Made by a program: the position numbers and the translations under genes
Shown: one piece after another, positions 58,203-60,427 of the stretch
How the letters are laid out: each line of letters starts with the position of its first letter
Numbering within the stretch: the stretch's first letter is position 1
The notes under the pieces: generated by a model
Seen by the model: the letters and a program-made list of their open reading frames with translations, nothing else
What the model was told of the DNA's origin: nothing
The model's database searches: none
NCBI GenBank assembly: GCA_947568535.1
Contig: CANOPF010000001.1
Span: 1-61,569, forward strand
Source of the DNA: an uncultured Clostridium sp.
GTDB lineage: Bacteria > Bacillota > Clostridia > TANB77 > CAG-508
Reading direction: 5' to 3'
DNA: 61,569 nt

Positions 58203-58322
58203 ATAAGAAGAGGTTTTCTCTTTAGATTTCACAAAGACTAAATGGTTATTAAAAATTGGAGTTCTAACCTTTTAGTTAAAAGAATACAATTAAACAAAAG
58301 TATACGTATGGGGGTTTGCTTT

Positions 58323-58499
58323 ATGAAAGACATATCAATCGAAGAACGTGCTATTAATTTAGCACAATATATAATAGATTCAAAAGATACAGTAAGAGGT
58401 GCAGCAAAAAAATTTGGGATTTCAAAATCAACTGTACACATGGAAGTTACAATTCAGAATGGTTTGAAAATTGGACAGAAAATTCTTGAAAACGTATAA
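58323..58499 (+). pseudogene. spoIIID: sporulation transcriptional regulator SpoIIID, 5' part only (homology ends after the HTH)
   Basis: MKDISIEERAINLAQYIIDSKDTVRGAAKKFGISKSTVH matches the SpoIIID N-terminal HTH (..IKER.I.I..YI...K.TVR..AK.FGVSKSTVHKD). The following MEVTIQNGLKIGQKILENV stop lacks the conserved C-terminal basic region (...RH.RGG.AT). Confidence 0.6.
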
Positions 58500-58567
58500 A
58501 GTAAGTGTTTTTTTAGCGGCTAGAACCAGCTATGATGAAGTTTAGGATTAGTTATTAAATAGAATTA

Positions 58568-58606
58568 GAAAAATAAAGTGCTTTTTAGAAGCATTTTATT
58601 TTTTGA
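58568..58606. terminator. terminator-like hairpin
   Basis: AAAATAAAGTGCTT-ttta-GAAGCATTTTATTTT (one G-U or mismatch). Confidence 0.55.
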
Positions 58607-58624
58607 TAAAATGATGAAAAAGTC

Positions 58625-58653
58625 TTGACATATATTGTGGCACGTGTTAAAGT
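58625..58653 (+). promoter_or_regulatory. sigma-A type promoter
   Basis: TTGACA, a 17-nt spacer, then TAAAGT, ahead of the ORF starting at 58674. Confidence 0.5.
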
Positions 58654-58673
58654 ATATAGCAAGGAGGAATAGT

Positions 58674-59165
58674 ATGAATATAATAAATGATATTAGAGAA
58701 AGACAAGAACAATTAGTAGCTATGATCAATACAACATTTGAGGAACTAATCAAAAAGGTAGAGAATTTACCAATAGAAGATAATAACTATCAAAGAGAAT
58801 ATGAAAGTATTTATCCAATAACCAATACAAAAGTACTAAAAGGAAAAAAACCTATAGCAGTAAAGATGGGAGATCAACGTATAATTACTCCTACTTGGAA
58901 AAAAGTAGTCGAGAATATTTTGAAAGAGGTTATCAAAGATGAACATATGAAAAAGAAAGTATTGAGCCTACGAGATATATTGTTAGGACGTGTTCGTACA
59001 AGAATTTCTAAATATTCGGATAATATGCGTAGCCCTATAGAATTATGTAAGGAATTATATATTGAAACTCATTATGATACAGAAACATTAATGAACTTTT
59101 TACTACAAATTTTAACTGAAATACATTATGATTATCATCATGTAAAAGTAATTATCAAAAATTAA
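58674..59165 (+). CDS. hypothetical protein (163 aa)
   Basis: ATG lies behind AAGGAGG. The product is helical and Lys-rich with no recognisable family. Confidence 0.6.
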   Translation: MNIINDIRERQEQLVAMINTTFEELIKKVENLPIEDNNYQREYESIYPITNTKVLKGKKPIAVKMGDQRIITPTWKKVVENILKEVIKDEHMKKKVLSLRDILLGRVRTRISKYSDNMRSPIELCKELYIETHYDTETLMNFLLQILTEIHYDYHHVKVIIKN

Positions 59166-59412
59166 AAGCAGATATATCAAAAGGTTATCAATGGGATGGT
59201 TTTACACTATTAATTATAGATACTTTTGTTAGATTTAAATATTATACAAAATGAATATGATGATGTATGCTACACATCTTGATAGTAAAAGTTACTAACA
59301 AAAATATAAAACAAGCGAGCACCTGTATAAAAATAATTACAATTGTATTGAACAATATCACTTCTTATGATATAAATATAACATAAAGAATAAAATGTAG
59401 TAGGTGGAGAAA

Positions 59413-60273
59413 ATGAATATATTAAACAATTGGTTATTATATGTGTCATTGTATTTAGTTTTAGCAACAGTTTTTACACAATTTTATAAAATTACAACAA
59501 AGACACTAACGAAAGCAGGCTCTTTAACTGTTTTATTAGAACTTATGGCAGGAATTATAGTGCTTTTTTTATGTCCGTTTTTTGAAATCAAGTTTTCTAC
59601 AGATATAAAAGTATATATATCATTAGGATTTGCAATTATTTTTTATGCAATAACAGATAGATTAAATACTACTGTACGAAAAGAAATAGAAGCATCAACT
59701 TTCAGTATACTAAAACAGATATCAACTGTATTTATGATAGTTGCAGGAATACTATTCTTTAAAGAGTCTTTTCTATGGAATAAAATGATAGGAGCTACAT
59801 TAATCATTTTTAGCAATATTTTAATTTTTTACAAAAAAGGTAAGTTTAAGTTTGATAAATATGTATTGCTTGGAGTATTATCTAATTTATCTTTTTCAAT
59901 AGCTATGTTTTTAGATGTAAGTATTTCTGATAATTTTAATTTGCCAATATATGTTGCAATTACTTTAATAGTACCAGCAATCTTAATTTTTATATTTGAT
60001 AGAATAAAATTTTCTGAAATTAAAACAGAATTTAAAAATGGAAACAAAAAAGCTATGATAATTACCTCTTTCACATGGGGATTAAGTATATTTAGTCAAT
60101 TAAGAGCATATCAATTAGGGAATGTTACAACAATAGCTCCGTTATGTGCATTAACAGTTATACTGAATGTTTTAGTTGGATATTTGTTTTTAAAAGAAAA
60201 AGATAGTTTATTAAAAAAAATATTTGCTGCTATTTTAGTAATTATAAGTGTTATTTTGATAAAATGTAAATAA
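59413..60273 (+). CDS. EamA/DMT family transporter
   Basis: Ten predicted TM helices in two EamA-like halves. ATG 59413 lies behind GGTGGAG. Confidence 0.75.
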   Translation: MNILNNWLLYVSLYLVLATVFTQFYKITTKTLTKAGSLTVLLELMAGIIVLFLCPFFEIKFSTDIKVYISLGFAIIFYAITDRLNTTVRKEIEASTFSILKQISTVFMIVAGILFFKESFLWNKMIGATLIIFSNILIFYKKGKFKFDKYVLLGVLSNLSFSIAMFLDVSISDNFNLPIYVAITLIVPAILIFIFDRIKFSEIKTEFKNGNKKAMIITSFTWGLSIFSQLRAYQLGNVTTIAPLCALTVILNVLVGYLFLKEKDSLLKKIFAAILVIISVILIKCK

Positions 60274-60391
60274 TATTATATATATTTAGTATAGAATTTT
60301 TACATAAAAATATAATAATACTAATAGATAAATTTAACATTTTGCTTGATAAAATCAAGATTTAAGTGTTATACTATCAATAGTAGATTGT

Positions 60392-60427
60392 ACCTCGGAT
60401 AACCTACCAGCCGAGGTCATTTTTTTA
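60392..60427 (+). terminator. rho-independent terminator
   Basis: ACCTCGG-ataacctaccag-CCGAGGT followed by CATTTTTTT. Confidence 0.7.

What the first reader, a model, noticed from the sequence alone, without database searches (positions are those of the whole stretch)
58323..58520. spoIIID loses homology right after its helix-turn-helix, suggesting a second split mother-cell sporulation gene
Residues 1-39 (MKDISIEERAINLAQYIIDSKDTVRGAAKKFGISKSTVH) align well with SpoIIID. The next 19 residues and the stop do not resemble the conserved KD.TERLP...RH.RGG.AT C-terminal half, which is needed for DNA binding. Downstream DNA is accessory in character.

Taken with the PBP case, the core segment of this window would be flanked by insertions in two genes expressed in the mother cell.
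Basis: partly seen in the sequence, partly recalled or inferred. Interest (0 to 1): 0.7.

Follow-up and report, generated by a model that had tools for sequence, protein, structure and literature searches.

The report
Mobile element splits sporulation gene spoIIID
The sporulation regulator gene spoIIID of this uncultured gut Clostridium is cut in two by an 11.8-kb mobile element with its own site-specific recombinase, and related elements sit at the same codon in many gut species, adding a new and very early target to the known 'excise the DNA to finish the spore' switches.

Summary
Window 58323-58499 encodes only the first 39 residues of SpoIIID, followed by 19 unrelated residues.

A 78.7-kb contig of the same organism (99.86% identical over 10.3 kb) shows the missing half 11,845 bp downstream, directly after a 509-aa large serine recombinase (LSR). 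Joining the two ends at the shared CTGTACA gives an 86-aa protein. It passes the NCBIfam SpoIIID equivalog cut-off and aligns without gaps to PDB 2L0K.

The case is not isolated.
- At least 116 of 120 related LSR clusters, and 75 of 80 metagenome loci, sit directly upstream of a spoIIID 3' half that starts at the same codon.
- 32 complete elements measure 3.8-11.8 kb. Their only universal genes are the LSR (31/32) and a 57-63-aa acidic protein, p60 (32/32).
- 25 of 32 also carry a MobV relaxase, so they are Tn4451-like mobilizable elements, not prophages.
- The reconstructed attP is a 52-bp imperfect palindrome centred on CA (window 58437-58438).

The detached gene halves and the LSR are both under strong purifying selection. 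The LSR has a sigma-A-type promoter and p60 a conserved sigma-E-like one.

The most likely mechanism, which is inferred and not shown, is mother-cell excision that rebuilds spoIIID, as in skin and gin. I found no report of spoIIID as a target.

The parts
58283..58290 (+). Candidate -10 box (AATACAAT) of the spoIIID promoter. [quoted passage not shown]
   Evidence: Read directly from the sequence. The assignment to sigma-E is inferred from the C. difficile and B. subtilis consensus (PMC3789822) and was not tested.
58323..58438 (+). 5' segment of spoIIID: codons 1-38 plus the first two bases (CA) of codon His39. It carries most of the helix-turn-helix and breaks inside the recognition helix.
   Evidence: Pfam PF12116 positions 4-43/82. 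Gapless alignment of the rejoined protein to PDB 2L0K residues 5-80.
58412..58463 (+). attL: host B arm (58412-58436), predicted crossover dinucleotide CA (58437-58438), element P' arm (58439-58463, CATGGAAGTTACAATTCAGAATGGT).
   Evidence: Comparison of attL and attR in 32 complete elements. Only CA is always shared, and it lies at the centre of the 52-bp palindromic attP.
58439..58499 (+). Foreign tail of the truncated ORF (MEVTIQNGLKIGQKILENV plus stop), encoded by the left end of the element. The same tail type occurs in related elements (HKDVTLKNGK...).
58439..61569 (+). Left 3.1 kb of the 11,845-bp intervening element. The rest lies beyond the window end and is seen in L002 10310-19023.
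58671..59165 (+). First cargo gene, a 164-aa protein of unknown function. It has its own TTGACA-type promoter. Homologues occur in L108 and L012, but it is not a core gene of the family.
59413..60273 (+). Cargo: EamA/DMT-family transporter.
   Evidence: Pfam PF00892, E = 9e-17.
60991..61569 (+). Cargo: Phd/YefM antitoxin (60991-61245) and ParE toxin (61261-61569). A 17-nt palindrome lies upstream at 60919-60959.
   Evidence: Pfam PF02604 and PF05016; inverted repeat I2.

Best explanation
spoIIID, the first mother-cell-specific transcription factor made under sigma-E, is interrupted inside the codons of its DNA-recognition helix by an 11,845-bp non-phage integrative element.

Shown:
- The element was inserted by a large serine recombinase (LSR) at a CA dinucleotide, the first two bases of His39.
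- The LSR gene lies at the far end of the element, immediately upstream of the detached 3' half of spoIIID.
- Related elements occupy the same site in spoIIID in many gut species.

Inferred:
- The LSR is made constitutively from a sigma-A-type promoter.
- A conserved 57-63-aa acidic protein (p60), encoded just upstream of the LSR and preceded by a sigma-E-like promoter, acts as the recombination directionality factor.
- When sigma-E becomes active in the mother cell, p60 switches the LSR to attL x attR recombination.
- The element leaves as a circle and an intact 86-codon spoIIID is rebuilt behind its own promoter, so the mother-cell programme (sigK and later genes) can continue.
- The forespore keeps the element, so it is inherited vertically.
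- In most family members a MobV relaxase also allows horizontal mobilisation.
For: Structure of the locus:
- Same-organism contig L002 carries spoIIID-5', cargo, the LSR and spoIIID-3'.
- A shared CTGTACA lies at both junctions. Joining them gives an in-frame 86-aa protein that scores 125.7 bits against NCBIfam TIGR02844, where the cut-off is 111.5.
- The rejoined protein is 95-97% identical to intact orthologues and aligns without gaps to 2L0K.
- Empty sites with the same synteny exist in related species (L013 and L113, ~80% nt identity).

The LSR:
- It has the complete Resolvase, Recombinase and Zn_ribbon_recom domains.
- It is 100% conserved in 7 contigs.
- Its dN/dS against relatives is 0.07-0.10, the same range as within the family.

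The family:
- At least 116 of 120 LSR clusters read through into spoIIID codons, or were verified next to spoIIID by DNA.
- 75 of 80 metagenome loci have the spoIIID 3' half 14-161 nt after the LSR.
- Of 32 complete elements, 28 rejoin to a complete SpoIIID ORF and 2 more are still open at the contig end.
- The reconstructed attP is a 52-bp imperfect palindrome centred on CA.
- The detached 3' halves have dN/dS of 0.02-0.16, equal to intact alleles.

Candidate control elements:
- p60 is present in 32 of 32 complete elements and is, with the LSR, the only universal gene. Its pI is 4.4.
- The block TAATATT-14-[A/C]ATAGTAT is conserved in all 36 distinct p60 upstream sequences.
- The LSR promoter TTGATT-17-TAAAAT with TG, preceded by a terminator, is conserved in 4 of 5 aligned relatives.

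Precedents: in C. difficile skin the LSR CD1231 is sigma-A driven and the 72-aa RDF CD1234 is sigma-E/SpoIIID driven (PMC5025042). The non-phage gin element uses GirC with the 6.5-kDa GirX (PMC5595907).
Against: - No excision product was observed. The exact rejoined protein is absent from the 15-billion-protein collection.
- No conspecific empty site was found; all 9 contigs carrying the identical cmpB neighbour also carry the split allele.
- The RDF role of p60 is inferred only from its size, charge, position and co-conservation.
- The sigma-E-like match is weak on its own. About one match per 1-2.5 kb occurs by chance, and most family members have AATA rather than CATA in the -10 box.
- The best-studied relative by gene content, Tn4451, needs no RDF (PMC5704250).
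- The window's copy has the most divergent attP (15 of 59 mismatches to the consensus against 2-11 for the others).
- Its LSR lacks the C-terminal tail of its relatives (509 aa against 526 or more).
- The element lacks the MobV relaxase found in 25 of 32 relatives.
- The host is uncultured, so its ability to sporulate has not been demonstrated.
Confidence: 0.68

Rival explanations
1. Plain insertional inactivation. The element is an integrative mobilizable element that uses the highly conserved recognition-helix codons of spoIIID as a convenient attB, because the gene is dispensable in vegetative growth. Carriers are asporogenous or poorly sporulating, and no developmentally timed excision occurs.
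For: - 25 of 32 family members carry a MobV relaxase, and some carry TnpV, like ordinary Tn4451-type IMEs.
- Serine-recombinase IMEs commonly disrupt dispensable genes (PMC5704250).
- LSRs are more similar between hosts than host genes are. For L108 against L100 the LSR is 92% nt identical, while sipL is 69%. This indicates horizontal spread.
- No excised form was seen.
- Decayed copies exist (L126, L199).
Against: - The detached 3' halves in five lineages have no stops or frameshifts, and their dN/dS of 0.02-0.16 equals that of intact alleles.
- 28 of 32 elements rejoin to a complete ORF.
- The split allele is fixed in at least 9 samples of this lineage.
- Neighbouring sporulation genes (yabG, sipL, yunB, spoVE) are intact in carriers.
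- A conserved small partner protein with a non-sigma-A promoter is hard to explain if excision were irrelevant.
Confidence: 0.15
2. Excision occurs but is not developmentally programmed. As with TnpX of Tn4451, the LSR alone catalyses both excision and integration at a low stochastic rate in any cell, so only the fraction of cells that has lost the element can complete sporulation. p60 would have another role.
For: - The gene content resembles Tn4451/Tn4453: LSR, Mob_Pre and TnpV.
- Excision and integration of Tn4451 need no RDF (PMC5704250).
- The LSR has a constitutive-type promoter.
Against: - p60 is the only gene besides the LSR present in all 32 complete elements. It is 76-97% conserved by tblastn while the cargo turns over.
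- Its promoter block is conserved and is not sigma-A-like.
- Stochastic loss from the germ line would not keep the element fixed in all sampled contigs of the lineage.
- The LSR is only ~30% identical to any plasmid- or phage-borne LSR, so behaviour like that of TnpX cannot be assumed.
Confidence: 0.12
3. The two gene pieces are expressed separately and their products complement each other, so no DNA rearrangement is needed.
For: In the window's lineage the 3' half has its own ATG three bases after the LSR stop codon and lies in the same frame as the LSR. 13 of 32 elements have such an ORF.
Against: - The break lies inside the recognition helix (STVH|KD).
- Only 13 of 32 elements provide a start codon for the 3' piece.
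- In most relatives the LSR ORF overlaps the 3' half in another frame.
- From prior knowledge (Himes et al. 2010, not re-read here), both the HTH and the C-terminal basic region of one SpoIIID monomer are needed for DNA binding.
Confidence: 0.02
4. This is a genuine short SpoIIID variant or a decayed paralogue, with the real gene elsewhere.
For: A second copy elsewhere in the genome could not be searched for.
Against: - The locus is syntenic with intact spoIIID in relatives (thiF-cmpB-spoIIID-zf_Tbcl in L013 and L113).
- The missing half lies 11.8 kb downstream, in frame after excision in silico.
- None of the roughly 7,900 homologues inspected shares the short C-terminus, except conspecific copies.
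Confidence: 0.02

Closest known systems
skin element in sigK (B. subtilis SpoIVCA; C. difficile CD1231 with RDF CD1234)
   Same: - An LSR-bearing element splits a mother-cell regulator gene.
- The recombinase gene sits next to one junction.
- In C. difficile the LSR is sigma-A driven and a small acidic RDF gives the timing (PMC5025042). This is the same promoter layout as predicted here.
   Different: - The target is spoIIID, not sigK.
- The element is not prophage-like.
- The LSR shows no close relationship to known ones: about 30% identity is the best match to annotated phage or plasmid LSRs.
- Excision has not been shown.
gin element in gerE of Bacillus cereus ATCC 10987 (GirC with GirX)
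   Same: - A non-phage intervening element in a small HTH transcription-factor gene of the mother cell.
- A ~58-kDa LSR paired with a ~6.5-kDa partner (PMC5595907).
- Horizontal spread is suspected.
   Different: - gin has 31 genes and three recombinases, whereas this family is 3.8-11.8 kb with one LSR.
- The host clades differ (uncultured gut Clostridia against Bacillus).
- GirX function is shown in vitro, whereas the role of p60 is only inferred.
SPbeta in spsM (SprA/SprB), vfbin in spoVFB, vrin in spoVR, yin in yabG
   Same: The same principle applies: an element with a serine recombinase inside a mother-cell sporulation gene, with precise att sites that restore the ORF (PMC4191935, PMC10747680).
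   Different: Those elements are prophages or prophage-like, and their targets are late (sigma-K period) structural or enzymatic genes. Here the target is an early regulator and the element is a small mobilizable element.
Tn4451/Tn4453 family of integrative mobilizable elements (TnpX, TnpV, TnpZ)
   Same: - Small clostridial elements with an LSR, a Mob_Pre (MobV) relaxase and, in some, TnpV. In the family here MobV is in 25 of 32 and TnpV in 10 of 32.
- The crossover is a 2-bp core.
   Different: - Tn4451 inserts with low specificity and needs no RDF (PMC5704250).
- This family is strictly specific for one site in spoIIID.
- It always carries p60.
- The window's copy lacks MobV and TnpV.
fdxN element and XisF in Anabaena heterocysts
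   Same: An LSR-mediated excision in a terminally differentiated cell rebuilds a gene. The NCBIfam XisF model gives a partial hit (153.6 bits).
   Different: The score is far below the family cut-off of 375. The organism, the target and the accessory factors (XisH and XisI) are unrelated.

Membership tests
SpoIIID (NCBIfam TIGR02844 / Pfam PF12116) | A full-length match of about 80 residues covering the HTH and the C-terminal basic region, at or above the equivalog cut-off. | tested here: met
   The rejoined 86-aa protein scores 125.7 bits (cut-off 111.5) over profile positions 4-79/80. The window ORF alone covers only Pfam positions 4-43/82, so the gene as it stands in the window is not a complete SpoIIID.
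Sporulation-gene intervening element (skin/gin type) | Insertion inside the coding sequence of a mother-cell-expressed sporulation gene. | tested here: met
   That spoIIID is mother-cell and sigma-E dependent comes from established knowledge in B. subtilis and C. difficile (PMC3789822, PMC5025042). It was not tested in this organism.
Sporulation-gene intervening element (skin/gin type) | The element encodes a site-specific recombinase next to a junction. | tested here: met
   A 509-aa LSR ends 44 nt before the attR core.
Sporulation-gene intervening element (skin/gin type) | Short identical cores at attL and attR, such that excision restores an intact ORF. | tested here: met
   CTGTACA is shared at both junctions and CA is the family-wide core. 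The rejoined ORF is intact in 28 of 32 elements, with 2 more still open at the contig end.
Sporulation-gene intervening element (skin/gin type) | Excision occurs during sporulation, in the mother cell only. | not testable with these tools
   No read-level or culture data were available. The exact rejoined protein is not in the assembled collection.
Sporulation-gene intervening element (skin/gin type) | A recombination directionality factor under sporulation control. | tested here: inconclusive
   The candidate p60 is universal in the family (32/32), acidic and ~6.7 kDa, and is preceded by a conserved sigma-E-like block. It has no Pfam, NCBIfam or PHROG match, and no functional test was possible.
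Large serine recombinase (phage-integrase type) | An N-terminal resolvase catalytic domain with the Ser nucleophile, a recombinase domain, and a zinc-ribbon with coiled-coil domain. | tested here: met
   PF00239 (3-149), PF07508 (171-279) and PF13408 (296-359). The YARVST motif is at residues 6-11. PHROG 95 integrase matches at E = 4e-121.
Large serine recombinase (phage-integrase type) | An attP of about 50 bp with imperfect dyad symmetry around a non-palindromic 2-bp crossover. | tested here: met
   The reconstructed family attP has 18 of 25 arm positions symmetric, counted by eye on the call-72/73 consensus, and is centred on CA. The window's own attP is the most degenerate copy.
Tn4451-type integrative mobilizable element | A MobV (Mob_Pre) relaxase for mobilisation. 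| tested here: not met
   It is absent from the window's element, which carries a TrwB/FtsK-like ATPase and a 237-aa protein instead. It is present in 25 of 32 relatives (PF01076, E = 1.6e-43).
Prophage or prophage remnant | Phage structural, packaging or lysis genes. | tested here: not met
   - PHROGs hits are limited to the integrase and two families of unknown function.
- IMG/VR holds no close relative; the best match is ~30% identical.
- The best match among annotated phage LSRs is ~31%; one unannotated faecal contig reaches 45.7%.

The most novel reading that the evidence does not exclude
A large, horizontally spreading family of 4-12-kb mobilizable elements has made spoIIID dependent on DNA excision in many uncultured human-gut Clostridia. 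spoIIID is the regulator that, in the model organisms, itself licenses skin excision and sigK transcription. The switch must therefore be thrown by sigma-E directly through the p60 factor, which would make it the earliest programmed DNA rearrangement in the mother-cell cascade. In this genome it acts together with at least one more LSR element, in spoVD, so several independent mobile elements would gate sporulation in series.
Probability: 0.5. Interest if true: 0.75.

Novelty: new member of a known kind. Interest (0 to 1): 0.62.

Why it matters
The interrupted sporulation genes listed in the papers read are sigK, spsM, spoVFB, spoVR, gerE and yabG. Most act late.

spoIIID is a different kind of target. 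It is the first mother-cell transcription factor after sigma-E. In both B. subtilis and C. difficile it is required for skin excision. An element inside spoIIID therefore cannot use the known regulatory logic, and it places a mobile element at the top of the mother-cell hierarchy.

The family is abundant in gut metagenomes: more than 100 LSR clusters, and 80 loci from one scan. It is strictly site-specific, and its minimal core is an LSR, a ~60-aa partner and a ~52-bp attP. This gives three things:
1. A tractable system for asking why mobile elements target mother-cell genes.
2. A marker that genome annotation pipelines will mis-call as a spoIIID pseudogene, so that sporulation capacity of gut MAGs is under-scored.
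3. A new LSR with a candidate RDF and a well-defined attB/attP pair, of possible use as a genome-engineering tool.

Tried and rejected
- C-terminal half inside the window: tblastn found nothing.
- Exact look-up of the rejoined protein in the 15-billion-sequence collection: absent.
- Look-up of the 164-aa cargo protein: not on record.
- Conspecific empty site: all 9 contigs with the identical cmpB neighbour carry the split allele. The nearest intact alleles (P0001/L113, L013) come from other species at about 80% nt identity.
- Genome-contig scan with the rejoined protein: only full-length matches made the top 80, so it could not be used to count split alleles.
- Similarity of the element to known records: no plasmid DNA match. 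Plasmid and annotated phage LSRs are at most ~33% identical, and one unannotated faecal contig reaches 45.7%. IMG/VR matches are ~30%.
- Rfam on the whole L002 locus: no family.
- The 164-aa left-end protein as a core or RDF candidate: rejected, because it is absent from all 80 metagenome loci.
- Contigs in the attP (excised) configuration: a regex could not separate attP from attR, because the P' arm mimics the first ~10 nt of the B' arm. P0192 turned out to sit next to a divergent spoIIID 3' half.
- An attL remnant upstream of the cargo island in L012: none found.
- Decay of the window's LSR: 26 deviations at conserved columns suggested it, but dN/dS of 0.07-0.10 shows normal purifying selection on a longer branch.
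- A sigma-E-type match upstream of spoIIID in the window with my scoring scheme: none at the threshold used.
Full report
**1. The observation**

The ORF at window 58323-58499 encodes 58 residues. Pfam SpoIIID (PF12116) matches at E = 8e-16, but only over profile positions 4-43 of 82. tblastn with B. subtilis SpoIIID aligns residues 5-42, and similarity ends after ...GISKSTVH. The remaining 19 residues are unrelated. No C-terminal half is encoded anywhere in the 61.5-kb window.

The genes downstream are accessory in character: an unknown 164-aa protein, an EamA transporter and a Phd/ParE toxin-antitoxin pair. The upstream genes are ordinary chromosomal ones such as thiF and cmpB-like. The centre of the window holds housekeeping genes, including rpoD, dnaG, proS, efp, holB and scpB.

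**2. The missing half**

An identity look-up of the ParE toxin returned contig ERZ14231475 NODE_246 (locus L002). It is 99.86% identical to the window over 10,309 nt, with L002 position equal to window position minus 51,260.

In L002 the truncated spoIIID is followed by this gene order:
- the 164-aa gene, EamA and Phd/ParE;
- NUDIX, an NT5C-like gene, a peptidase S66 fragment, HAD and an AraC-type HTH;
- a 109-aa ORF, a 641-aa TrwB/FtsK-like ATPase, a 237-aa ORF and a 57-aa ORF;
- a 509-aa large serine recombinase (LSR) with Resolvase, Recombinase and Zn_ribbon_recom domains.

The spoIIID 3' half (VHKDVSERLKKINPSLAKEVRIILDENKAERHMRGGMATKLKYSHLKEK) begins 44 nt after the LSR stop codon.

Both junctions carry CTGTACA (window 58432-58438; L002 7172-7178 and 19017-19023). 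The element is 11,845 bp long. Joining the two ends gives an 86-codon ORF. Its product:
- passes the NCBIfam SpoIIID equivalog TIGR02844, with 125.7 bits against a cut-off of 111.5;
- is 95-97% identical to intact SpoIIID proteins of relatives;
- aligns without gaps to residues 5-80 of the B. subtilis structure 2L0K.

The break lies inside the recognition helix (STVH|KD).

**3. Not an artefact, a short variant or a stray paralogue**

The truncated allele is seen in contigs from at least 9 different assemblies. The identical LSR occurs in 7 contigs.

Related species keep the same gene order, thiF-(PAP2)-cmpB-spoIIID-zf_Tbcl, with an intact spoIIID. Their DNA is colinear with the element-less reconstruction straight across the junction, at about 80% nt identity (L013; L113).

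No conspecific empty site was found. The exact rejoined protein is not in the 15-billion-protein collection. In the sampled population the element therefore appears to be fixed.

**4. A large family, always at the same site**

The LSR has more than 100 cluster representatives at 87-91% identity. In most of them the ORF runs through attR into spoIIID in the +1 frame. The tails end in ..ST* or ..STQRC.., which is the +1 translation of GTA CAY AAA GAT GT. By regex, 112 of 120 show this signature. Four more are consistent with it by eye or were verified by DNA.

Look-ups of five further cluster representatives (P0139, P0215, P0165, P0211 and P0192) all showed the spoIIID 3' half directly after or overlapping the LSR gene. 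In L108 both ends lie in one 8.5-kb span.

A metagenome scan gave 80 loci, with these results:
- 75 have the 3' half 14-161 nt after the LSR. Of the other five, four lack downstream sequence and one (L199) is a decayed copy.
- 30 also contain the 5' half.

Together with L002 and L108 this makes 32 complete elements of 3,832-11,845 bp. In-silico excision gave the following outcomes:
- a complete SpoIIID ORF in 28;
- an ORF still open at the contig end in 2;
- not scored at the N-terminus in 1;
- a decayed copy in 1 (L126).

**5. The att sites**

Across the family the sites read as follows.
- attL is the host B arm ending in GT[A/G/T], then CA, then a conserved P' arm (CAmmGAwGTAACAyTCmAGAACGGTAA).
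- attR is a conserved P arm (CTACCGTTACGAAAAGTAACAwCrGTA), then CA, then the host B' arm (yAAAGATGT...).

Only CA is always common to attL and attR. The reconstructed attP is a 52-bp imperfect palindrome with 18 of 25 arm positions symmetric, counted by eye on the consensus, and it is centred on that CA. This is the typical anatomy of an LSR site. It places the crossover on the first two bases of the His39 codon, at window 58437-58438.

The window's own attP is the most divergent copy, with 15 of 59 mismatches to the consensus against 2-11 for the others.

**6. Core and cargo**

Clustering all ORFs of the 32 complete elements showed that only two real genes are universal:
- the LSR (31 of 32);
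- a 57-63-aa acidic protein, p60 (32 of 32, pI 4.4), which is 76-97% identical between elements by tblastn.

p60 was found in 64 of the 80 metagenome loci. All 16 loci without it have less than 1.7 kb of sequence upstream of the LSR. It has no match in Pfam, NCBIfam or PHROGs.

Frequent but non-universal genes are:
- a Mob_Pre/MobV relaxase (25 of 32, E = 1.6e-43);
- a sigma70-r4-like HTH protein (21 of 32);
- a 179-aa protein that I read by eye as ToxN/AbiQ-like (20 of 32; no Pfam hit);
- TnpV (10 of 32).

The remainder is variable cargo of toxin-antitoxin, abortive-infection and defence type, such as AbiEii and SLFN/AlbA_2.

There are no phage structural genes and no close relatives in IMG/VR, in phage records or in plasmids. 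The family is therefore best described as small integrative mobilizable elements of Tn4451-like make-up that are strictly specific for spoIIID. The window's copy lacks MobV and TnpV.

**7. Evidence for retained function**

- The detached 3' halves from five split lineages have dN/dS of 0.02-0.16, the same as intact alleles at 0.015-0.19.
- The window's LSR sits on the longest branch of the family, with 26 deviations at columns conserved at 97% or more. Its dN/dS of 0.07-0.10 nevertheless equals that of the rest of the family.
- LSRs are more similar between hosts than host genes are. For L108 against L100 the LSR is 92% nt identical, while sipL is 69% and veg 84%. This points to horizontal spread.
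- Carrier loci keep intact yabG, veg, sipL and yunB next to spoIIID.

**8. Regulatory signals (suggestive only)**

An intrinsic terminator lies upstream of the LSR gene. It is followed by a sigma-A-type promoter, TTGATT-17-TAAAAT with an upstream TG (L002 17362-17390). This arrangement is conserved in 4 of 5 aligned relatives.

Upstream of p60 the block AGTAATATT-14 nt-[A/C]ATAGTAT-~22 nt-GGTGAG-TTG is conserved in all 36 distinct upstream sequences from 67 loci, while the sequence further upstream varies. Its architecture is an ATA-type -35 box, 16 nt from the ATA to the -10 box, and a CATA-type -10 box. This is the architecture described for sigma-E promoters in C. difficile (PMC3789822). 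The match is weak on its own, with about one chance hit per 1-2.5 kb. The -10 box of spoIIID itself in this window (AATACAAT, 58283-58290) is of the same AATA type.

This layout parallels C. difficile skin, where the LSR CD1231 is sigma-A driven and the 72-aa RDF CD1234 supplies mother-cell timing (PMC5025042). It also parallels gin, with GirC and the 6.5-kDa GirX (PMC5595907).

**9. Mechanism proposed**

Shown:
- an LSR element is inserted at a defined CA within spoIIID;
- the att sites are precise;
- the recombinase and both gene halves are intact and under selection;
- there is a family-wide partner protein.

Inferred:
- in the mother cell, sigma-E drives p60;
- p60 turns the constitutively made LSR towards attL x attR recombination;
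- the element is excised and spoIIID is rebuilt behind its own promoter;
- the forespore chromosome keeps the element.

In B. subtilis and C. difficile, SpoIIID is itself needed for skin excision (PMC6957869, PMC5025042). The trigger here must therefore act upstream of SpoIIID.

The rivals are plain inactivation in hosts that no longer sporulate, and RDF-independent stochastic excision as in Tn4451 (PMC5704250). Neither is excluded, because no excision product could be observed with these tools.

**10. Comparison with what is known**

The published interrupted sporulation genes found in the literature search are sigK, spsM, spoVFB, spoVR, gerE and yabG (PMC4191935, PMC5595907, PMC10747680). 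Five full-text searches returned no report of spoIIID as an insertion target. One paper only notes phage-encoded spoIIID-like genes (PMC5027557).

I therefore class this as a new member of a known kind, the LSR-type sporulation-gene intervening elements. Its notable differences are:
- an early regulatory target;
- a non-phage, Tn4451-like mobilizable backbone;
- a recombinase ORF that usually crosses attR;
- very wide distribution in gut metagenomes.

**11. The companion claim**

At the other end of the window a second LSR (4003-5745, 23% identical to the first) is followed by the last ~100 residues of SpoVD (5892-6197; TIGR02214 positions 539-632 of 636). The dcw genes murE, mraY, spoVE and murG follow. 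The 5' half of spoVD was not recovered within 10 kb.

Noticed in passing
window 4003-6197 (and window 1-259): A second large serine recombinase (4003-5745, 580 aa, 23% identical to the spoIIID-element LSR) is followed directly by the C-terminal ~100 residues of SpoVD (5892-6197; TIGR02214 positions 539-632/636). After that come pyrBI, murE, mraY, spoVE and murG. This looks like another intervening element, in spoVD, a gene not on the list of interrupted sporulation genes in the papers read. Window 1-259 is the 3' end of a third LSR (551 aa in L120). The 5' half of spoVD was not found within 10 kb upstream.
   Followed up: partly
L023 7924-10267 (CAKOVK010000001.1): A 225-bp direct repeat (97% identical) of the spoIIID promoter plus the first ~41 codons flanks a ~2-kb insert encoding an HTH protein and two small proteins. 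The left copy ends in a genuine P' arm of this element family. The right copy is an intact spoIIID. No recombinase is present. This looks like a remnant in which the split was resolved by duplication, by an unknown mechanism.
   Followed up: partly
L002 17390-17398, just after the -10 box of the LSR promoter: TGTAACAGA is conserved in 4 of 5 aligned relatives and matches 8 of 9 positions of the C. difficile SpoIIID box KRTAACARK (PMC5025042). It also resembles the GTAACA motif of the att arms. It could let rebuilt SpoIIID, or the LSR itself, regulate the recombinase promoter. This is speculation only.
   Followed up: no
L100-L112 and most LSR relatives; L002 18971-19023: In nearly all relatives the recombinase ORF runs across the attR crossover and ends in spoIIID sequence in the +1 frame. 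The last residues of the enzyme would therefore differ between the integrated and the excised state. In the window's lineage an earlier TAA stops the LSR at 509 aa, leaving it in frame with the spoIIID 3' half and separated from it by only that stop codon.
   Followed up: partly
L126 and L199: These are decayed family members. L126 has stops or frameshifts in both spoIIID halves. L199 has a frameshifted LSR with no attR and no spoIIID 3' half. So not every insertion is maintained.
   Followed up: partly
L012 6214-9935 (CANPIU010000040.1): A homologue (68% identical) of the window's 164-aa left-end cargo protein, together with a 932-aa helicase-like protein, sits between cmpB and an intact spoIIID. 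There is no recombinase and no attL remnant. The same cargo gene therefore occurs next to spoIIID outside a recognisable element.
   Followed up: partly
window 60919-60959 and 60528-60589: A 17-nt near-perfect palindrome lies immediately upstream of the phd/parE operon and is a likely autoregulatory operator. A separate hairpin with 21-nt arms lies in the 700-nt non-coding stretch between the EamA gene and the toxin-antitoxin pair.
   Followed up: no
L108 18840-20582 and L109 14665-16407: Another 580-aa LSR lies next to an mreB/mbl-like gene in a different carrier species. Several LSR elements per genome may be common in these gut Clostridia.
   Followed up: no
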